Assembly: GCA_964613055.1 (NCBI GenBank)
Contig: CAZTGD010000006.1
Span: 5,340-69,339, forward strand
Reading direction: 5' to 3'
Length of the DNA: 64,000 nucleotides
DNA from: an uncultured Caldisericales bacterium
GTDB lineage: Bacteria > Caldisericota > Caldisericia > JAAYUI01
Of the stretch, positions 13,047 through 64,000 are shown in pieces. The position numbers were made by a program, and so were the translations under genes. Under the pieces are notes generated by a model that ran no database searches, had not been told where the DNA came from, and was given only the letters and a program-made list of their open reading frames with translations. Positions within the stretch are counted from its first letter, which is position 1, and each line of letters starts with the position of its first letter.

Positions 13047-13802
13047 ATGGCCGAAAGAACAAAGAAAGAGAAGAAGAAGATACTGATAATCGAGGATGAG
13101 TACCGCATTGTTGAGTCTCTTAAATTCAACCTCGAGGGTGAGAATTACAGTGTATATCATGCATCACTTGGCAAGGAAGGTTTGGAGCTTTTCAAGAGAC
13201 GAAAACCGGATTTAATTCTCTTAGACCTCATGCTCCCCGAGGGACAGAGTGGAATCGATATACTCAGGCGTATCAGGCAAGAAGATCCGAGTGTACCTGT
13301 GATAATTATAACTGCAAAGACAACTGAGATTGATGAAGTTGTTGGCATGGAGATGGAGGCTGATGATTACATTACCAAACCTTTCTCAATGGCAGTTCTG
13401 AAATCTCATATAAAGAGAAGACTCAAGGTAGCCGAGCAGAAAGGTGCCGCCGAAGAGAAGGAAGAAGAACGCAAGGAAATCACGAACGGCGATATCTATA
13501 TGAACTATGCACAGCGTGAATGCAAAGTTCGAGGCAAACCGGTCAAGCTCGGGTATAAGGAATTTGAGATCCTCTGGTATCTTGCATCCAACTCCAACCA
13601 AGTCTTCAAGCGTGAACAGATCATGGAAGAGGTTTGGAAAGTAGATCAACCACTGGATACAAAAACAGTTGATGTCCATATTAGGTGGATAAGGAAGAAG
13701 ATCGAACCTAAGCCAGAGGCACCCAGATATATTGAAACGGTTAGGGGTGTGGGATACAAATTCTCCTCATCGCATCAGAGCCCACAAAACGATAACAGTT
13801 GA
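13047..13802 (+). CDS. OmpR-family response regulator (receiver + winged-helix)
   Basis: Receiver motifs (ILIIEDE, DLILLDLMLP, ITAKT). C-terminal trans_reg_C-like region. Confidence 0.85.
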   Translation: MAERTKKEKKKILIIEDEYRIVESLKFNLEGENYSVYHASLGKEGLELFKRRKPDLILLDLMLPEGQSGIDILRRIRQEDPSVPVIIITAKTTEIDEVVGMEMEADDYITKPFSMAVLKSHIKRRLKVAEQKGAAEEKEEERKEITNGDIYMNYAQRECKVRGKPVKLGYKEFEILWYLASNSNQVFKREQIMEEVWKVDQPLDTKTVDVHIRWIRKKIEPKPEAPRYIETVRGVGYKFSSSHQSPQNDNS

Positions 13803-55090: not shown

Positions 55091-55130
55091 AAAAAAACCG
55101 AAACCCCCCTGTGGCCTAGGAGGGGGGTTT
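55091..55130 (-). terminator. Rho-independent terminator for the 55190..56212 gene
   Basis: Minus strand reads AAACCCCCCTCCTAGGCCACAGGGGGGTTT followed by CGGTTTTTTT. Confidence 0.5.
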
Positions 55131-57246: not shown

Positions 57247-57745
57247 TACACTTTATATTATATCTTAAGAAACTGTCTGACAAGAAGCGAATGGCAGTGA
57301 TCCATGCCTTATTATTGTCTAACAACATCATAGATGAATTGGTTAGTGACCAAACCAGATATTGAGTAGTTTTGTTTTAATGTGATACAGCTTAGCCATA
57401 TCTGAGTCTATTATAACTCTTTTCCCTTGACCATGTAGATGAGATTTGTAATATCCCCTATCTTATCATTGTACTTAAGATCTTTTGCTAATGAGAATAA
57501 TGACTTTAGATCGTTATTTTTATTTCGCATACCTGATAGTTCAGTTTGCATCTCACCTCCATAAATATGTCATATTGTTTCAACTCCATAACAAATCGTA
57601 GTAAATATAACACGAATTTGTTGTTCAGAGTTGAATACTGTTTTGATAAAATGTCGATTTAGTGTATTGATGTCAAATGTCAGCACCTTCACAGATAAGT
57701 GGTTTGTGGTATAATGTTGCTGAATCGGGAAAGATAAGGTGACAT

Positions 57746-59890
57746 ATGAAAAAAGCCACAAAGATTGTATGCTTGATGATATTGATGATCTCATTAGTTA
57801 TGACTCCTGTGATAGTTTCTTTTGCCAATACATCAAATCATTCCATGTTGATGGTTCTCCAGCCAAATGGAGGGGAGATGTGGGGTTCGGGTGAAACACA
57901 CATCATTGCATGGGCATCTGGTGGATTAAACCCACAAGGACGCATATTCATTTATGTGGGAGATGAGGGTAACTGGAGTAAAATTGCCGGACCTATGCCC
58001 GTAACACTCAACGCATGGTCATGGAACATAAAAGACCCTGGATGCACCCACGCCAAGATAAAAGTCGTCTGTTATGTTGAATCAAATTGTCAGATAATGG
58101 ATATTTCAAACGGGTACATAACCCTCACTGGCACAAAACCCACACTACAACCACCAACACTTATTACACCGTTGAACAACACGATTGAAGTCTCAACTAA
58201 ACCAACGTTCACATGGGAAGCAAACACCATGTCATACTCATACAGATTACAGATTTCCAGATATGAAACCTTCACAGATATATATATGGACAGATGGATT
58301 ATTGACGATACCTCATACAAACCCGAATACTCGCTACCAGACGATTCAAAGCTATACTGGAGAGTTGCGTCATACGACTCTAGTGGCAACCCCAGTTTGT
58401 GGTCGTATCCATGGTCATTTTCCACCGGCAGAGCAGATAATGCAGACTTCTTTATGGCAAACGGCAAGGTGACCACTGAAAATGGCTACCTGTTGGATGA
58501 CGTATATATGGATTTCGTCTGTCAACACAACTCAAAACACCAACCTCAACCGGTATTAACTGATTACAGGGGATACTGGACACAGACAGGATTTGAATCA
58601 GGATACACATACAAGGTTATACCCAGCAAACCCGGCTACACTTTTGACCCACCTCAGATGTTCATCGAACAGTGGAACTCATCGGATATAAACTTCACTG
58701 CAAAATCGATACTCTCAGGATCGATAACGGTTGCTTGGCCCAACGGCATGGAAACCATCAAAGCTGGTGAAGAGAAGAAGATCCTATGGACATCCACCAA
58801 CCTAAATCCAAAAGCGAAGATCTATATCAGCCTGATCAAGAGCATCGGACCGAGTGAACTCATTGCAGGACCAATTTCCAGCAACACCCGATCGTTTACA
58901 TGGATTGTACCCAACTACGAAATACATATGGCAAAGATCAGGATTGAATGCAGAGAGGATGACAAGCTAACGGCAATAGATGAGAGTGACTGGTGGTTCA
59001 AGATCTCAAAAGAGCCCCAAATCCAACTCAGACCATCCCTCACATCACCCTTAAATGGTCAGCAGTGGGTGTCAACACATCCAACACTCTACTGGGAACC
59101 GATCACCAGTTACGACAACTATCAGGTACAACTCAGCGACAACCCATACTTCACCAACCTCATCATCGATCGCTACACAACCAACACCTGGGTCAACATC
59201 ACCCCCAGTCTGAATTATGGCATGAAGTACTACTGGCGGGTCAAGGCTTTCAACAATGCAACCAACGACACAACAGAGTGGAGCTACTGGAATCACTTTA
59301 CCACCGGATACGAGAGAGAAGAGGAAACCTGGCAGGCACAAGGTTGGGTGGAGGACGACAACGGCAACCCCGTCTATGGATGCATGATTTCATTCGTGTC
59401 ATTGTCAGGAAACGCCTCTGTGCCAGCGGTTGCTGTCACAAATGATAAGGGGTTCTGGTCACAGACGGGCTTTGTATGCGGAGAGGAGTACAAGGTATAT
59501 CCCGCCATTCAGGGTGTTTCATTCAGCCCCTCAAGCATGGTCATATCTGAGTCCGTATCCTCTAGTATTAACTTCACTGCTTTCGGTCTGGGTTCATCGG
59601 CTGACCTGATCGTCCGATCCCCTGAGGCTGGTTCATACAAGCGTGGCACAACCCAGTCCATCTCCTGGTCGGTCAACTCCATCCCTGAAGACGCAGTCTT
59701 CTATATCAGCCTCATGCACGACGGAAAGGTTACCCAGATTGACGGACCACTTCCTTCCTATGACCGTCACAAGGTGTGGACAGTGCCAGACATCATCACA
59801 AATGACGCAAGGATAAGGGTGCAGGCATGGCGAAACGCCCAGATCATAGCAGAGGCAAAGGGACCCACATTCTCAATAACAGGACCATAG
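57746..59890 (+). CDS. Large secreted protein with internal Fn3-like and other triplicated repeats
   Basis: Signal peptide. Repeats ...TFTWEANTMSYSYRLQISRYETF... / ...TLYWEPITSYDNYQVQLSDNPYF... and GPMPVTLNAWSWNIKD / GPISSNTRSFTWIVPN / GPLPSYDRHKVWTVPD. Ends 4 bp before the RM gene. Confidence 0.55.
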   Translation: MKKATKIVCLMILMISLVMTPVIVSFANTSNHSMLMVLQPNGGEMWGSGETHIIAWASGGLNPQGRIFIYVGDEGNWSKIAGPMPVTLNAWSWNIKDPGCTHAKIKVVCYVESNCQIMDISNGYITLTGTKPTLQPPTLITPLNNTIEVSTKPTFTWEANTMSYSYRLQISRYETFTDIYMDRWIIDDTSYKPEYSLPDDSKLYWRVASYDSSGNPSLWSYPWSFSTGRADNADFFMANGKVTTENGYLLDDVYMDFVCQHNSKHQPQPVLTDYRGYWTQTGFESGYTYKVIPSKPGYTFDPPQMFIEQWNSSDINFTAKSILSGSITVAWPNGMETIKAGEEKKILWTSTNLNPKAKIYISLIKSIGPSELIAGPISSNTRSFTWIVPNYEIHMAKIRIECREDDKLTAIDESDWWFKISKEPQIQLRPSLTSPLNGQQWVSTHPTLYWEPITSYDNYQVQLSDNPYFTNLIIDRYTTNTWVNITPSLNYGMKYYWRVKAFNNATNDTTEWSYWNHFTTGYEREEETWQAQGWVEDDNGNPVYGCMISFVSLSGNASVPAVAVTNDKGFWSQTGFVCGEEYKVYPAIQGVSFSPSSMVISESVSSSINFTAFGLGSSADLIVRSPEAGSYKRGTTQSISWSVNSIPEDAVFYISLMHDGKVTQIDGPLPSYDRHKVWTVPDIITNDARIRVQAWRNAQIIAEAKGPTFSITGP

Positions 59891-59894
59891 AAAC

Positions 59895-62800
59895 ATGTCT
59901 TCAGAGCTGAAGCAAGCATACAGTATCTATATCAAGCAGATTGAGCTTGACCACCGTAAAGGGAATGACACGGAGATAACCCACCGTGACGCCTTTTCCG
60001 CGTATGTCAAAGCTGTGCTAACCGATGGTTACACTGTCTCTCAGGAAACAAAACAAGAGGATGGCAACAAACCGGACTATGAAATAGAGAGCAAATCAAG
60101 AACAGTTGGATTCATCGAAACCAAGAAGATAGACTATCCCCTTGACAGGCTCGAAGGTGACGATCAACTGCAGAGATACTTTGAAGCGGTTGGCAATGTG
60201 ATAACCACAAACTACCTGGAGTTTAGATGGTATTCAAAGATTGAAAACACAGATGATTACGATGGCTCCAAACTGATACCAATCAGATCACTCAAGGTCG
60301 CCCACTGGGATGGTAAACGGATTGTAACCGATATAAAAGACCCACATCTGAAGCTGGCTGATTTCATTAGGGGGTTTACCTATGCAAAGGTGAGAACCGT
60401 CCGCAAGCCCGTTGAGCTTGCGCGGAGGATGTCATCGACAGCAAAGATGATTCGCGATTCAATGACGGAGGAATTGGCAGGAGAAACCAATGAAATTGAT
60501 CCGCTTTCATCTCAACTGGAATCTTTCAGGGAAACGATTATTGCTGACCTGTCTCCACAGTTGTTTGCGGACATGTACGCTGAAACCATAAGCTATGGTC
60601 TCTTTTCGGCAAAGAACGCCGTTGGCTCAAAAGAGATAACCTGGCAGGGAGCATCCCATTCCATTCCCGCAACCAATCCCTTCCTCAAGAGACTCTTCAA
60701 CGAACTCGTTCAGCAGTTGCCCCCTGCTGTTACCAGATACACGAATCTGCTTGTAAACCTGATGAACGCCATTGACCTGGAATCGGTTATGAAGGGGTTT
60801 GGCAAGGGTAGAGCGAAAGACCCCGTATTTCATTTCTACGAGACATTCCTTTCAGAATACAACCCTAGCCAGCGTGAGAGGCGCGGGGTGTACTACACCC
60901 CAAAACCAGTCGTGAGGTTCATTGTCCGCTCAGTCGACCATATCCTCAGAACCACCTTTGGTTTAAACGGAGGATTGGCAAACGCTGAAGAACAAGACGA
61001 TGGCGTCAAGAGACTCACCATCCTCGACCCAGCCACAGGCACTGGCACCTTTCTCCATGAGGTATTAAACCAGATATTTGAAGAGATTGGTGTCGCCCAG
61101 GCCGGTGGATTCGACAGGAATGACAAAGGGGTAAACGAGGATATCATCCCCAGGCTCTATGGTTTTGAGCTGATGATCGCTCCATACACCATAGCCCACC
61201 TGAAGCTGGGTATGTTGCTTGCAGAGAATGGCTACCAGGGCAGTCAGAGGCTGAATGTGTATCTGACCAACGCGCTGGAGGAGGCGCACAGGTTTGATGA
61301 TGACAGCACAAAAGGGCTCTTTGGATTCACAAAGACAATCATGGCGGAGTCAGAAGGCGCATCGAAAGCCAAGAGTGAACTGCCCGTGATGGTGGTGCTT
61401 GGCAATCCGCCATACTCCGGTCATTCCGCAAACGATATCGAGTGGATGGATGAGCTGATGAGAGGCAAGTGCTACACTGGCAACCCCAAAGAAAAGCTGT
61501 CACAAAGACCTCATGAAAAAACGCACAACTACTTTGAGGTGGACGGCAAGGGTCTTGGTGAGAGGAATCCCAAGTGGCTCAACGATGACTATGTCAAGTT
61601 CATCCGCTGGGGTCAGTGGCGCATAGAGCAGACGGGCGCTGGTGTGCTGGCGTTCATAACAAACCACGGCTATCTTGACAACCCAACCTTCCGAGGCATG
61701 AGGCAGTCACTGCTTGAAGCGTTTGACGAGATTTACATCACCGACCTGCACGGCAACGCCAAGAAGAAGGAGGTCACACCAAGTGGTGGCAAGGATGAGA
61801 ACGTGTTTGACATCCAGCAGGGCGTTGCCATAGGAATATTTGTGAAGCACCCCAAACCCCCCTGCCCTGCACAGGATAATAACCCCCTTTTCAAGGGGGT
61901 CGAATACGACAAAGTCGGATTCGGGGGGTTTAACAAACACTCAAAATACCTAAACAAATCCTTCACCAACGAGAGGATAAAGCAATACAACCTCATATCC
62001 AACGGCACACACCTGCCATACGCAGATGATCTAAAAGACAAAGCCAGAGAACTGAGAAAGAGCCAAACACCAGCAGAGAAGAAACTGTGGTATGAATACC
62101 TAAGCAGACTCGACCTTCGCTTCAAGCGTCAGCACCCGATAGACAACTACATAGTAGACTTTTACTGCACGAAACTCGGTTTGGTGATTGAGATTGATGG
62201 TTCATTGCACAACGAAGACCTACAGCATGATAAAGACAAAAAGCGTACTGCGATACTGGAGAAATATGGTCTGACCGTGATTCGTTTTTCCAACGATCAG
62301 GTTTTAAAGGAGTTTAAGGGTGTCTGTCAGGTTGTAGATTCGTATATAAGCAAAGATAAACCCCCCTACCCTGCTGTGCAGGGCATCCCCCCTCGAAGAG
62401 GGGGGTGTAAGTATGCTACGGTGTATCATCATGACCTGTGGGGGGTGCGTGAGATACGGGTCAATTCAAAAAAAGAGAACGATAAAACAGAGCTGGTGGG
62501 TGGCAAGTATCACTGGCTGGATACACACAGTGTGGGTGAAGGTGTCGACTGGAAGGTGCTGAACCCGCAACAACCCTTCTATCTGTTCAGCCCCTTTGAC
62601 AACGAGCTTGCCCATGAGTATGAGTGTGGCGTGAAGATTACCGATCTGTTTCCCACCAACTCGGTTGGGATAGTGACAGCAAGGGATAAGTTCGTTATTG
62701 ATTTCGAAAGAAACAATCTGGTTCAGAGATTAAATGAGTTCTGCTCAAAAGAGATATCCGATGATACAGCAAAAAGGAATTTTCTATCGAATCGAGACAA

Positions 62801-63533
62801 ACTAGATGTTTCTAAAGCCCGAAACGAGGTTAGAAAAGTAAATATTGAAAATTATGTTGATGACATCTTATACCGACCTTTTGACACGAGACCAATCATT
62901 TATTTGCCAGCTTTGATTGAGAGAAGCAGGGATGATGTCATGAAACACATGCTGGCGGGGGATAATGTTGGTTTGATAACCACAAGACAAGTTGCTGTAA
63001 GTATTTTCAATCATTCACTTATCACCAATAGCATTATTGACAATCGTCTAACAAGAAGCAATAAAGGCATCTGTTACCTTTTCCCGCTGTACTTGTATCC
63101 ACACGGCGACTCACTGGATGTTAAGTCAACCTCCTGGCGGGAGGGTGAAAACGGACGCATACCAAACCTGAACAGGAAGCTGATTGAGGGCATCGCTAAA
63201 CGTTTGGGTGTGATTTTTATTTCGGAGGGCAAGGGCAACATCATTCAAACCCCCCTGCCCTGCACAGCAGGGCGTCCCCCCTCGAAGAGGGGGGGCAAAG
63301 GACCCCCTTTTGAAGGGGGTCGAATCCGCTTCTGGCGGATTCGGGGGGTTGACAATCGGTCCAGAGGACATCCTCAGCTACATCTACGTCATCCTCCACA
63401 GCCCAACCTACCGCACCCGTTACGCACCATTCCTGAAGATGGACTTCCCCCGTGTGCCCTTCACCTCCAACCTGGAGCTGTTTGCCAAACTCTCAGCCAT
63501 CGGCTCAAGACTTATCAGCCTGCATCTGCTTGA
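59895..63533 (+). CDS. Type IIG (MmeI-like) RM enzyme as it reads in this sequence; authentic to ~63295, then out of frame
   Basis: PD-(D/E)xK (PDYEIE...GFIETKK, aa 60-78). MTase motif I ILDPATGTGTF. YYTPKPVV. NPPY at 61404-61415. Family-typical ...DENVFDIQQGVAIGIFVK and ...VYHHDLWGVREIR.... After the G7 tract at 63289-63295 the frame gives low-complexity P/Q/L-rich sequence. Confidence 0.7.
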   Translation: MSSELKQAYSIYIKQIELDHRKGNDTEITHRDAFSAYVKAVLTDGYTVSQETKQEDGNKPDYEIESKSRTVGFIETKKIDYPLDRLEGDDQLQRYFEAVGNVITTNYLEFRWYSKIENTDDYDGSKLIPIRSLKVAHWDGKRIVTDIKDPHLKLADFIRGFTYAKVRTVRKPVELARRMSSTAKMIRDSMTEELAGETNEIDPLSSQLESFRETIIADLSPQLFADMYAETISYGLFSAKNAVGSKEITWQGASHSIPATNPFLKRLFNELVQQLPPAVTRYTNLLVNLMNAIDLESVMKGFGKGRAKDPVFHFYETFLSEYNPSQRERRGVYYTPKPVVRFIVRSVDHILRTTFGLNGGLANAEEQDDGVKRLTILDPATGTGTFLHEVLNQIFEEIGVAQAGGFDRNDKGVNEDIIPRLYGFELMIAPYTIAHLKLGMLLAENGYQGSQRLNVYLTNALEEAHRFDDDSTKGLFGFTKTIMAESEGASKAKSELPVMVVLGNPPYSGHSANDIEWMDELMRGKCYTGNPKEKLSQRPHEKTHNYFEVDGKGLGERNPKWLNDDYVKFIRWGQWRIEQTGAGVLAFITNHGYLDNPTFRGMRQSLLEAFDEIYITDLHGNAKKKEVTPSGGKDENVFDIQQGVAIGIFVKHPKPPCPAQDNNPLFKGVEYDKVGFGGFNKHSKYLNKSFTNERIKQYNLISNGTHLPYADDLKDKARELRKSQTPAEKKLWYEYLSRLDLRFKRQHPIDNYIVDFYCTKLGLVIEIDGSLHNEDLQHDKDKKRTAILEKYGLTVIRFSNDQVLKEFKGVCQVVDSYISKDKPPYPAVQGIPPRRGGCKYATVYHHDLWGVREIRVNSKKENDKTELVGGKYHWLDTHSVGEGVDWKVLNPQQPFYLFSPFDNELAHEYECGVKITDLFPTNSVGIVTARDKFVIDFERNNLVQRLNEFCSKEISDDTAKRNFLSNRDKLDVSKARNEVRKVNIENYVDDILYRPFDTRPIIYLPALIERSRDDVMKHMLAGDNVGLITTRQVAVSIFNHSLITNSIIDNRLTRSNKGICYLFPLYLYPHGDSLDVKSTSWREGENGRIPNLNRKLIEGIAKRLGVIFISEGKGNIIQTPLPCTAGRPPSKRGGKGPPFEGGRIRFWRIRGVDNRSRGHPQLHLRHPPQPNLPHPLRTIPEDGLPPCALHLQPGAVCQTLSHRLKTYQPASA
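61854..61930 (+). repeat. GC-rich modular hairpin repeat, copy A, translated in frame
   Basis: AAACCCCCC-TGCCCTGCACAGG-ATAATAA-CCCCCTTTTCAAGGGGGT-CGAATACGACAAAGTCGGATTC-GGGGGGTT. About 65% GC in a ~43% GC gene. Confidence 0.7.
61932..62354 (+). other. Embedded DUF559-like (Vsr/PD-(D/E)xK-fold) endonuclease domain, in frame within the RM gene
   Basis: LRKSQTPAEKKLWYEYLSRLDLRFKRQHPIDNYIVDFYCTKLGLVIEIDGSLH...KDKKRTAILEKYGLTVIRFSNDQVL matches the DUF559 domain consensus. No ATG or stop of its own. Confidence 0.65.
62358..62405 (+). repeat. GC-rich modular hairpin repeat, copy B (5' modules only)
   Basis: AAACCCCCC-TACCCTGCTGTGCAGGGCAT-CCCCCCTCGAAGAGGGGGG. C6/G6 symmetric hairpin. Confidence 0.7.
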
Positions 63534-63858
63534 GGACGACGTGCTGAAATCCGACAGATCGGTCAGCTTCACAGGAGACGGCGACCACGTGGTGGGCAGA
63601 ATCAGACATGAAAACAACCGCGTCTACATCAACAAAGACGAATACTTTGAGGGTGTGCCGGCGGACGTCTACAGATTCATGGTCGGCGGGTACCAGGTCG
63701 CAAACAAATGGCTGAAGGACAGAAAGAAAAGGGAGCTTGTAAGGGAGGAGAGGACTCGATACTGCAGGATAATCACCTCGCTTAAAATGACCTTAAAGGC
63801 GATGGATGATATCGATGAGATTATTGATTCCGCAGGCGGATTCCCTCTTAAAACCTGA
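63187..63858 (+). CDS. C-terminal module of the same RM enzyme, in the +1 frame (ORF track 63310..63858)
   Basis: Open frame from 63187. Contains LSYIYVILHSPTYRTRYAPFLKMDFPRVPF and MVGGYQVANKWLKDRKKRELV, conserved at C-termini of type IIG/ISP-like enzymes. Deleting one G of the G7 tract joins it to the 59895 ORF. Confidence 0.65.
63247..63350 (+). repeat. GC-rich modular hairpin repeat, copy C (full set of four hairpins); contains the C6/G7 asymmetric tract where the frame breaks
   Basis: AAACCCCCC-TGCCCTGCACAGCAGGGCG-TCCCCCCTCGAAGAGGGGGGG-CAAAGGACCCCCTTTTGAAGGGGGT-CGAATCCGCTTCTGGCGGATTC-GGGGGGTT. Confidence 0.7.
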
Positions 63859-63882
63859 CTGGGCAGAAAAACACCAAACTGA

Positions 63883-63913
63883 AAGGGGACGACCTTAGCC
63901 GGTCGCCCCTTTT
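63883..63913 (+). terminator. Rho-independent terminator after the RM gene
   Basis: GGGGACGACC-TTAGCC-GGTCGCCCC followed by TTTT. Confidence 0.45.
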
Positions 63914-64000
63914 CGATAAAAATGCACTAGAGATATGCTAAGTTAAGTGGATTACGGGTTGATGCAGGTTCCGCTTCCGTCTCCAGGTCCTCTGCTACCT

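What the first reader, a model, noticed from the sequence alone, without database searches (positions are those of the whole stretch)
59895..63858. Mosaic MmeI-like type IIG restriction-modification gene carrying foreign in-frame inserts
The ORF joins an N-terminal PD-(D/E)xK nuclease (D61...E76-x-K78) to a gamma-class N6-adenine methyltransferase (ILDPATGTGTF motif I, NPPY at 61404-61415) and a conserved C-terminal module (YR..Y..FLKMDFPRVP, GGYQVANKWL). This single-chain layout matches type IIG / MmeI-like enzymes; there is no helicase domain, so it is not type ISP. Homologues have only about 15 aa between the conserved ...IFVK and ...VYHHDLWG segments. Here about 190 aa of extra sequence sits there (repeat A, a DUF559 domain, repeat B). 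A third repeat sits further downstream. The gene is about 4-5% more GC-rich than its neighbours, which is consistent with horizontal acquisition. A restriction enzyme decorated with embedded mobile elements and an extra endonuclease domain is unusual and would be worth characterising.
Basis: partly seen in the sequence, partly recalled or inferred. Interest (0 to 1): 0.85.

Follow-up and report, generated by a model that had tools for sequence, protein, structure and literature searches.

The report
Restriction-enzyme gene invaded by mobile repeats
A bacterial restriction-modification (anti-phage) enzyme gene has hairpin-forming repeats and a small extra nuclease gene sitting inside its coding sequence; they are read through as protein in sister strains, but this copy is also broken by a 50-base deletion and is probably inactive.

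Summary
Window 59895-63858 (+) is a single-chain type IIG/IIL restriction-modification gene. It has a PD-ExK nuclease, an NPPY N6-adenine methyltransferase and a Type_ISP_C target-recognition domain (TRD), and no helicase. DrdV is the closest solved structure.

Two loops of nearly fixed length in more than 100 homologues (15 aa and 6 aa) carry inserts. At the first, repeat A, a DUF559 (Vsr-like) nuclease and repeat B add about 181 aa. At the second sits repeat C.

The repeats are GC-rich multi-hairpin elements whose pairing is kept by compensatory changes. Their core belongs to a repeat abundant in cyanobacteria, yet the host is related to Caldisericia and carries them only in this gene. Free-standing cyanobacterial DUF559 genes sit in the same repeat-DUF559-repeat cassette, and three of six examined lie next to restriction genes.

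Sister alleles (1338 and 1341 aa) read through all inserts. The window allele lacks 50 nt of repeat C, which shifts the frame and splits the TRD; three independent assemblies agree. It is probably a pseudogene.

Alleles also differ by TRD swapping, and one breakpoint falls exactly at the 3' edge of repeat B. A related lineage has lost the DUF559 and kept an intact gene.

Verdict: a real new variant of known kinds (in-frame repeat insertion, type IIG enzyme), of moderate interest.

The parts
59895..63858 (+). Whole type IIG/IIL restriction-modification gene. In this allele it is read in two frames: ORF1 59895-63533 and the tail ORF 63310-63858, whose native part starts about 63352.
59895..60284 (+). 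N-terminal PD-ExK nuclease region. P60-D61 is at 60072-60077, E75 at 60117-60119 and K77 at 60123-60125.
   Evidence: Motif read from the sequence. The family consensus is GAPD-x10-GYxExK.
60816..61445 (+). Gamma-class N6-adenine methyltransferase core. Motif I (ILDPATGTGTF) starts at 61020; NPPY is at 61404-61415.
61854..61930 (+). Repeat A, 77 nt. It has inverted ends AACCCCCC/GGGGGGTT with hairpins inside and is translated in repeat frame 0.
61931..62357 (+). DUF559 (Vsr-like PD-(D/E)xK) endonuclease segment, in frame and without its own ATG. The Pfam match is 62028-62336.
62358..62405 (+). Repeat B, 48 nt, the 5' half of the repeat. Its 3' edge (62405/62406) is the mosaic breakpoint against allele L129.
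62643..63203 (+). First half of the target-recognition domain (Type_ISP_C profile positions 1-181).
62708..63077 (+). Variable TRD core. At DNA level it is not alignable with the two other alleles of the same species.
63247..63350 (+). Repeat C, 104 nt, folding as a multi-branch structure (dG -80.9 kcal/mol, z -7.7). It lacks a 50-nt module found in sister alleles; the deletion junction is the CAAAGGACCCCC at 63296-63307. This causes the +1 frame shift.
63343..63804 (+). Second half of the TRD (Type_ISP_C profile positions 183-340), in the +1 frame.
63885..63915 (.). GC-rich hairpin followed by a T run just after the stop codon; terminator-like.

Best explanation
The host gene. This is a chromosomal single-polypeptide type IIG/IIL restriction-modification gene in a bacterium related to Caldisericia. 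It encodes an N-terminal PD-ExK nuclease, a gamma-class N6-adenine methyltransferase and a Type_ISP_C TRD; it resembles DrdV and has no helicase. By analogy with DrdV and MmeI (inferred), the intact enzyme would bind an asymmetric site through the TRD, methylate one adenine, and cut unmodified DNA at a fixed distance.

The inserts. Two surface linkers whose length is otherwise almost invariant in the family have been colonised by GC-rich multi-hairpin repeats of a family abundant in cyanobacteria. At the MTase/TRD junction, two repeats bracket a DUF559 (Vsr-like) nuclease ORF. The same repeat-DUF559-repeat cassette occurs free-standing in cyanobacterial genomes.

Why they persist. The repeats act at the nucleic-acid level: the same DNA is translated in different frames at different sites. 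They persist because they sit in permissive loops and are translated through, giving disordered Pro/Gly-rich linkers and a separately folded DUF559 domain. Selection on the host enzyme keeps them in frame.

This window's allele. A 50-nt deletion between two 12-nt direct repeats inside repeat C shifts the frame and cuts the TRD in two. This copy is therefore most likely a recently inactivated allele.

Allele variation. The part from repeat B to the stop codon is exchanged by recombination between alleles, which is TRD swapping.

Shown: the anatomy, family membership, the indels, the frame shift, the breakpoints, the hairpin covariation, and the predicted order and disorder. Inferred: enzymatic activity, cyanobacterial origin of the inserts, the selfish nature of DUF559, and loss of function.
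For: Family and layout.

Fixed linker lengths, 15 aa and 6 aa.

Repeats:
- Anatomy and folding.
- Of the 9 pairs in hairpin 2, 7 show compensatory changes; 97.6% of cells are paired and 0 of 500 shuffles reach this.
- Different reading frames are used at different sites.
- The repeat core is abundant in Nostoc, Spirulina, Brasilonema, Scytonema and others.
- C5...G5 hairpins are confined to the gene in the window, L006 and L007.
- A metagenome scan finds this repeat variant only in alleles of this gene, plus one related element.

Host: the nearest named MiaA is from Caldisericia and no cyanobacteria appear in the top 120 hits. P0243 is named Caldisericia. The window contains no HIP1.

Same cassette around free-standing DUF559 genes.

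Alleles:
- In-frame sister alleles P0001 and P0241.
- The 50-nt difference.
- The identical frameshifted allele occurs in three independent assemblies.
- A DUF559-less intact allele, P0242/L128, can be compared with L007.
- Breakpoint: there are 5 differences in 4612 nt, 0 in repeat B, then 39 in the next 195 nt.

AF2 model: DUF559 has pLDDT 88-97 and all three repeat-coded segments are below 50.

Tolerance elsewhere: a related repeat is read through in frame inside a valyl-tRNA synthetase gene.

Precedent for in-frame repeat insertions: PMC10969869, PMC3184786.
Against: - No copy of the repeats was found elsewhere in the roughly 100 kb of host-lineage DNA examined, so mobility in this host is not shown.
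- No clear target-site duplications were found.
- DUF559 is more conserved between lineages (75% identity) than the host protein (63%). It has also lost its own start codon. Both observations fit co-option as well as they fit a selfish passenger.
- The frameshifted allele persists in several samples.
- No activity, methylome, transcript or protein data are available.
Confidence: 0.65

Rival explanations
1. Co-option. The DUF559 domain has become a working part of the enzyme, for example a second nuclease or nickase supplying second-strand cleavage. The repeats then serve as flexible linkers.
For: - DUF559 is orthologous between the window and L007: 75% identity and reciprocal best hits. The host protein is only 63% identical.
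- The D...ExDG..H motif is intact when aligned with 3hrl.
- The domain is confidently folded and matches 3hrl with TM 0.82.
- It has no ATG of its own in any of the three lineages (compared).
- It is in frame in the window group and in P0003.
Against: - It is absent from more than 99% of the family.
- L128/P0242 lost it and kept an intact 1185-aa ORF.
- In L007 a frame shift in repeat A separates it from the nuclease-MTase part.
- pN/pS is about 0.4-0.5, against 0.12 for the host part, although only 8-9 differences are involved.
- The same cassette exists free-standing.
Confidence: 0.2
2. The window allele is still functional. Either a +1 ribosomal shift on the CCC-CCU run in repeat C restores the frame, or two polypeptides reassemble, as in two-subunit enzymes.
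For: - The same frameshifted sequence occurs in three independent assemblies from two projects.
- ORF1 keeps the nuclease and the methyltransferase.
- L007 is also split, at the MTase/TRD junction.
- A very stable hairpin lies just downstream of the shift site.
Against: - There is no recognised frameshift signal and no nearby zero-frame stop.
- The split falls inside the TRD fold, between profile positions 181 and 183.
- Sister alleles achieve the reading frame by sequence, not by recoding.
Confidence: 0.1
3. The inserts are intervening sequences removed after transcription or translation (group I or II intron, or intein), with DUF559 as the homing endonuclease.
For: - DUF559 is related to the intron-encoded homing endonuclease I-Bth0305I (3r3p: E 0.006; TM 0.80; PMC3424549).
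- It shows presence/absence polymorphism at a single site.
Against: - Rfam finds no intron.
- The insert boundaries (HPKPP...GGCKY|ATV) lack the intein Cys/Ser start and the His-Asn end.
- The reading frame is preserved in several lineages, which splicing would not require.
Confidence: 0.03
4. Assembly chimera or sequencing artefact in homopolymer-rich repeats.
For: The repeats contain many C5-7 and G5-7 runs, and the source is metagenomic.
Against: - The gene sequence is identical in three assemblies.
- The same architecture appears in at least six further contigs from other projects and lineages.
- The difference from the in-frame alleles is a clean 50-nt block, not a homopolymer length change.
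Confidence: 0.02

Closest known systems
DrdV (PDB 7LO5/7LVV) and MmeI: single-chain type IIL/IIG restriction-modification enzymes
   Same: Same order of domains in one polypeptide: PD-ExK nuclease, helical region, gamma-class N6A methyltransferase, TRD. DrdV is the best match both by sequence (E 8e-40) and by fold (E 3e-23). There is a full-length match to a type IIG model.
   Different: About 16% identity to DrdV. MmeI itself is only a marginal match (Foldseek E 0.07; Pfam MmeI_Mtase below cut-off). None of these enzymes carries a DUF559 or repeat inserts. In DrdV the site-1 loop is only 9 aa longer.
Type ISP enzymes LlaGI and LlaBIII
   Same: The methyltransferase and Type_ISP_C TRD are homologous (E 1e-31 to 3e-32). 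NCBI names many family members 'type ISP'.
   Different: No RecA-like helicase/translocase domain, so the defining ATP-dependent translocation module is missing.
Rickettsia palindromic elements (RPEs) and in-frame MITE fusions in Anabaena and others
   Same: Short palindromic repeats inserted inside ORFs and translated through, compatible with the protein fold (PMC10969869; PMC3184786).
   Different: Here the repeat is read in different frames at different sites, so there is no conserved peptide. It is confined to one gene in the host. One pair of repeats carries a nuclease ORF.
Cyanobacterial multi-hairpin MITE (core GATCCCCCCAACCCCCCTTAAAAAGGGGGG-N13-ACCCCCTTTTTAAGGGGGTCG-hairpin-GGGGGGATC)
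   Same: Same module order and near-identical hairpin cores as repeat C of allele L004 and repeat A of L007/L128.
   Different: The outer inverted repeats of the Nostoc elements (CAATACGGTTCGGTTAAC...) are absent. The closing stem is AACCCCCC/GGGGGGTT rather than GATCCCCCC/GGGGGGATC. I could not match it to a named family (Nezha and others), so no name is assigned.
DUF559 / Vsr-like nucleases: NGO0050 (3HRL), E. coli YcjD, homing endonuclease I-Bth0305I (3R3P)
   Same: Pfam DUF559 E 7e-33. 3hrl gives E 2e-14 by sequence and TM 0.82 by fold; 3r3p gives TM 0.80. The catalytic motif is conserved.
   Different: The known homing member sits in a phage group I intron. This one sits in frame inside a protein between hairpin repeats, with no intron or intein.

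Membership tests
Type IIG/IIL single-chain RM enzyme (DrdV/MmeI kind) | Full-length similarity to a curated type IIG REase-MTase family | tested here: met
   PADLOC PDLC03610, E 3.5e-262, residues 18-1087 of the 1098-aa spliced protein
Type IIG/IIL single-chain RM enzyme (DrdV/MmeI kind) | N-terminal PD-(D/E)xK nuclease motif | tested here: met
   P60-D61...E75-T-K77. Family consensus GAPD-x10-GYxExK.
Type IIG/IIL single-chain RM enzyme (DrdV/MmeI kind) | Gamma-class N6-adenine methyltransferase motifs I and IV | tested here: met
   ILDPATGTGTF, and NPPY at 61404-61415
Type IIG/IIL single-chain RM enzyme (DrdV/MmeI kind) | Intact TRD in the same polypeptide | tested here: not met
   In this window Type_ISP_C is split between two frames at profile positions 181/183. 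The feature is met in sister alleles P0001 and P0241.
Type IIG/IIL single-chain RM enzyme (DrdV/MmeI kind) | Site-specific methylation and cleavage at a fixed distance | not testable with these tools
   Needs enzyme assays or methylome data.
MmeI family proper | Significant match to MmeI domains or structure | tested here: not met
   Pfam MmeI_Mtase scores 20.7 bits against a cut-off of 27. Foldseek to 5hr4 gives E 0.07, probability about 0.5.
Type ISP RM enzyme | RecA-like helicase/translocase domain between nuclease and methyltransferase | tested here: not met
   No helicase family in Pfam. LlaGI and LlaBIII align only from their MTase onwards.
MITE / REP-like dispersed repeat | Terminal inverted repeats and a stable fold | tested here: met
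   AACCCCCC...GGGGGGTT closes a multi-hairpin fold, z -7.7. Covariation in hairpin 2.
MITE / REP-like dispersed repeat | Many dispersed copies in the genome | tested here: inconclusive
   The related core is abundant in cyanobacterial genomes. In the host lineage it is found only inside this gene. Whole host genomes were not scanned.
MITE / REP-like dispersed repeat | Target-site duplication; filled versus empty sites | tested here: inconclusive
   Filled/empty pairs exist for DUF559+B (L007 versus L128, bounded by AGTT) and for a 50-nt module. Both are equally explained by deletion at microhomology.
DUF559 (PF04480), Vsr-like PD-(D/E)xK | Match above the Pfam cut-off with the catalytic motif | tested here: met
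   113 bits against a cut-off of 20.6. Aligned with 3hrl. Fold TM 0.82.
Homing endonuclease gene | Resides in a self-splicing intron or intein | tested here: not met
   No Rfam intron. No intein junction residues.
Homing endonuclease gene | Cleaves the empty allele and is copied into it | not testable with these tools
   Only the presence/absence polymorphism (L007 versus L128) is seen.

The most novel reading that the evidence does not exclude
The hairpin-repeat/DUF559 cassette may be an uncharacterised homing-type selfish element. It would prefer N6-adenine methyltransferase and restriction genes. It would be expressed by read-through translation inside the host protein instead of by splicing. 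Its cleavage and repair would drive co-conversion of the adjacent TRD, linking selfish DNA to diversification of restriction specificity. Three observations fit this reading: the allele breakpoint lies exactly at repeat B, the cassette is retained across lineages that differ by 37% in the host protein, and three of six free-standing DUF559 genes abut restriction genes.
Probability: 0.15. Interest if true: 0.8.

Novelty: new variant of a known kind. Interest (0 to 1): 0.55.

Why it matters
The locus shows that a large defence enzyme can carry about 230 extra residues and still be maintained as one open reading frame in several lineages. Those residues are three disordered repeat-coded linkers and a complete foreign nuclease domain, placed in two loops. 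This identifies engineering-tolerant sites in DrdV-like enzymes.

It also points to an undescribed regularity. DUF559 nuclease genes sit in a fixed position between hairpin repeats, and often lie next to restriction genes. That could finally give this very common domain of unknown function a biological context, as a selfish or homing element of defence loci.

If the repeat at the MTase/TRD junction acts as a recombination joint, it would be a new route to specificity switching.

Tried and rejected
- Intron or intein reading. Rfam found no intron in 59500-64000 at E up to 10. The only notable hit was a sub-threshold whalefall-1 match. The junction residues are not intein-like.
- Measuring linker lengths from MAFFT columns failed, because homologues were misaligned into the insert. 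Motif-anchored regular expressions replaced it.
- The metagenome scan with the 17-mer AAACCCCCCTRCCCTGC gave 113 hits. Scoring the flanks showed that all but six are chance matches.
- Exact-sequence cluster look-ups of four window proteins returned no organism names. Taxonomy came from MiaA homologues and from the name given to P0243.
- pN/pS between close alleles is underpowered for DUF559, with only 8-9 differences.
- A literature search on DUF559 found nothing on mobility or association with repeats. I could not identify a published name for the cyanobacterial repeat.
- The DUF559 homologue search did not return the window's own protein or P0003. Relatedness of the embedded copies was therefore computed locally.

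Full report
**1. What is in the window**

ORF 59895-63533 (1212 aa) is followed by an overlapping ORF in the +1 frame, 63310-63858. Pfam gives these matches:
- N6_Mtase, aa 308-517.
- DUF559, aa 712-814, E 7e-31.
- Type_ISP_C, cut in two. Profile positions 1-181 lie in ORF1 and positions 183-340 lie in the tail ORF.

No helicase family is hit. Motif I (ILDPATGTGTF) starts at 61020. NPPY is at 61404-61415.

Three related GC-rich repeats lie at 61854-61930 (A), 62358-62405 (B) and 63247-63350 (C). Nothing similar occurs elsewhere in the 64 kb.

The gene is 48.4% GC, against 42.0% for the rest of the window. A terminator-like hairpin follows the stop codon.

**2. The host gene**

I removed the inserts and searched with the resulting 1098-aa protein. 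More than 7,700 homologues were found, typically 1060-1110 aa long. Their sources name them 'type ISP restriction/modification enzyme', 'N-6 DNA methylase' or 'predicted helicase'.

- The spliced protein matches the PADLOC type IIG REase-MTase model PDLC03610 end to end (E 3.5e-262).
- The closest solved structures by sequence are DrdV (7lo5, E 8e-40), then LlaGI and LlaBIII from their methyltransferase onwards.
- An AlphaFold model gives the same order: DrdV E 3e-23, with MmeI only marginal at E 0.07.

The gene is therefore a DrdV-like type IIG/IIL enzyme with a Type_ISP_C TRD. It is not a type ISP enzyme, because it has no helicase. It resembles MmeI only in layout. That DrdV and MmeI methylate one strand and cut at a fixed distance is my own knowledge; applying it here is an inference.

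**3. The inserts sit in loops of fixed length**

- Site 1. Between the last methyltransferase strand (...GIFVK) and ...LWG.R, the linker is 15 aa in 80 of 117 homologues and 13-21 aa in 110. It is 196 aa in the window, P0001 and P0241, 262 aa in P0003 and 57 aa in P0242. DrdV has a 9-aa longer loop at this position.
- Site 2. Between G-K-G and GPED, the linker is 6 aa in 89 homologues. Repeat C sits here.

**4. What the repeats are**

Repeat C folds into a closing stem (AACCCCCC/GGGGGGTT) around four hairpins, with dG -80.9 kcal/mol and z -7.7.

I aligned ten copies from five alleles. In the second hairpin, 7 of 9 pairs carry compensatory changes. Overall 97.6% of cells are paired, and 0 of 500 shuffles reach this value. 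One compensated pair separates the orthologous copies of the window and L129.

The same repeat DNA is translated in frame 0 at sites A and B and in frame 2 at site C. The peptide is therefore incidental and the element acts at the DNA or RNA level.

Almost all were cyanobacteria: Nostoc, Spirulina, Brasilonema, Scytonema, Tolypothrix, Leptolyngbyaceae and Chroococcales. In those genomes the motif is the core of a repeat with the form GATCCCCCCAACCCCCCTTAAAAAGGGGGG-N13-ACCCCCTTTTTAAGGGGGTCG-hairpin-GGGGGGATC. This is the module order of repeat C in allele L004.

**5. The host is not a cyanobacterium**

- The window's MiaA has its nearest named relative in a Caldisericia MAG (52% identity). Relatives at 50-66% identity form a group, followed by a gap down to 42-45%. 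No cyanobacteria appear in the top 120 hits.
- A fragment of the L007-lineage protein is named Caldisericia.
- The window contains no HIP1 octamer.

In the window, L006 and L007, nearly all C5...G5 hairpins lie inside this one gene. A metagenome scan for the lineage-specific repeat end found real copies only in alleles of this gene. The one exception was a related element read through in frame inside a valyl-tRNA synthetase gene of another organism.

Import of the repeats together with the gene from a cyanobacterial background is the simplest reading, but it is an inference.

**6. The DUF559 cassette**

The embedded DUF559 is intact:
- It aligns with 3hrl through the D...ExDG..H motif.
- It is predicted with pLDDT 88-97.
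- It superposes on 3hrl (TM 0.82) and on the homing endonuclease I-Bth0305I (TM 0.80). PMC3424549 places Vsr, DUF559 and that homing enzyme in one clade.

Its closest relatives are free-standing proteins of about 130 aa, at 52-61% identity. Many of these proteins end in ...IPPNPP or carry PLxKGG tails, meaning they read into the same repeats.

At DNA level the free-standing genes have the same layout as the window. The 3' part of one repeat (...GGGGGGATC) comes first, then the ORF, then the 5' part of the next repeat (GATCCCCCC...).

Of six independent free-standing loci examined, three abut restriction genes:
- A type IIG gene of the same superfamily (L123/L057).
- A degraded hsdM/hsdS (L130).
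- An Eco57I-type gene together with an SNF2-PLD helicase (L132).

The other three loci have no such neighbour. The sample is small but clearly non-random.

**7. Comparison of alleles and lineages**

- The window sequence is identical in three independent assemblies.
- Two other alleles sit at the same chromosomal place: P0001/L004 (1338 aa) and P0241/L129 (1341 aa). Both read through all three inserts.
- These alleles have 50 extra nucleotides in repeat C, flanked by CAAAGGACCCCC and CAAAAGACCCCC. This longer form matches the cyanobacterial consensus, so the window allele is the deleted, frameshifted derivative.
- L007 is a syntenic gene at 63% protein identity. It carries an orthologous DUF559 (75% identity, reciprocal best hit), a frame shift inside repeat A, and a fourth in-frame repeat insert.
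- L128 is L007's close relative (89% nucleotide identity). It has repeat A but lacks DUF559 and repeat B, and it is an intact 1185-aa ORF. The indel is bounded by AGTT.
- P0003/L006 (58% identity, different genomic context) has a DUF559 and other repeat variants at the same two sites, all in frame. Its DUF559 is not specially close to the window's (53% identity), so common descent versus independent insertion is unresolved.

Nine of eleven allele-site combinations are in frame, although only one of three frames of the long repeat C is open. This argues for selection on the host reading frame.

**8. Mosaic TRD**

The window and L129 differ at 5 positions in 57746-62357 and at none in repeat B. 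They then differ at 39 positions in the next 195 nt, starting at 62406, the first base after repeat B. Identity falls to 58-69% in 62696-63145 and is 91-94% from 63146 to 63745, rising to 97% across the stop codon. L004 shows a third, unrelated TRD core.

The recognition module is therefore exchanged between strains, and one junction coincides with the repeat at the domain boundary.

**9. Structure prediction**

I modelled residues 300-1338 of P0001. The three repeat-coded stretches have pLDDT below 50 (model residues 358-396, 523-556 and 822-868). They lie between confidently folded parts: DUF559 at 88-97 and the TRD at 86-98. This fits tolerated surface linkers.

**10. Interpretation**

Best-supported reading. 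A functional type IIG gene acquired repeat and DUF559 passengers in permissive loops. They are kept in frame by selection on the enzyme. The window allele has just been inactivated by a slippage deletion.

Rivals.
- Co-option of DUF559. This is favoured by its conservation and the loss of its own start codon. It is disfavoured by its loss in L128 and its rarity in the family.
- Residual function of the split allele.
- Splicing. No evidence was found.
- Artefact. This is excluded by replication across assemblies.

In-frame palindromic repeats are known, for example RPEs and Anabaena MITEs. The papers I searched described neither a nuclease-carrying cassette translated inside a restriction enzyme nor the DUF559-repeat-restriction association. 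I therefore rate the finding a new variant of known kinds, of moderate interest.

Noticed in passing
window 63300-63353 (+): The 3' half of repeat C (two adjacent hairpins) matches the Rfam whalefall-1 RNA motif (RF01762) at 28.3 bits, E 8e-5, below the gathering score of 37. That 'sRNA' motif may be a relative of this repeat family.
   Followed up: partly
L159 7715-10003 (-); also L209 around 3069: A related hairpin repeat (AAACCCCCCTGCCCTGCGGGCATCCCCCCTTGAGGAAGGGGGG) is read through in frame (...APLPQGGMPAGQGG...) inside a 762-aa valyl-tRNA synthetase-like gene of another organism. These repeats can therefore be tolerated in essential proteins.
   Followed up: partly
L123 444-4282 (-), L057 2221-2610, L130 3364-5480, L132 1045-8794: Free-standing DUF559 genes sit between repeat halves in a fixed layout. 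In three of six loci they lie directly beside restriction genes: a type IIG gene, hsdM/hsdS remnants, and an Eco57I-type gene with an SNF2-PLD helicase.
   Followed up: partly
window 57746-59890 (+): The upstream 714-aa secreted Ig-like repeat protein ends 4 nt before the restriction gene. It is also GC-rich (46.5%) and has the best promoter-like site of the region in front of it (57688-57715). It stays next to the restriction gene in L007 and L128. The two genes may be co-transcribed or may have been acquired together.
   Followed up: no
L007 11940-12010 and about 13200-13330: The L007 allele has its own frame shift inside repeat A. This yields a 667-aa nuclease-MTase ORF and a 709-aa DUF559-TRD ORF. 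It also has a fourth in-frame repeat insert (...RLCPTSPLEKGELKDHLSRGSDSLPENLGGLE...) after PLYLYP.
   Followed up: partly
P0103: One family member (1446 aa) carries protein kinase domains (PF00069/PF07714) fused to the restriction enzyme.
   Followed up: no
window 55104-55127: An isolated C6...G6 hairpin (CCCCCCTGTGGCCTAGGAGGGGGG) lies between genes. It is unrelated in sequence to repeats A-C and is probably a terminator.
   Followed up: no
P0114 and P0117: Two other family members have moderately longer site-1 linkers (40 and 30 aa) that are not of the repeat type. This confirms that the loop tolerates insertions.
   Followed up: no
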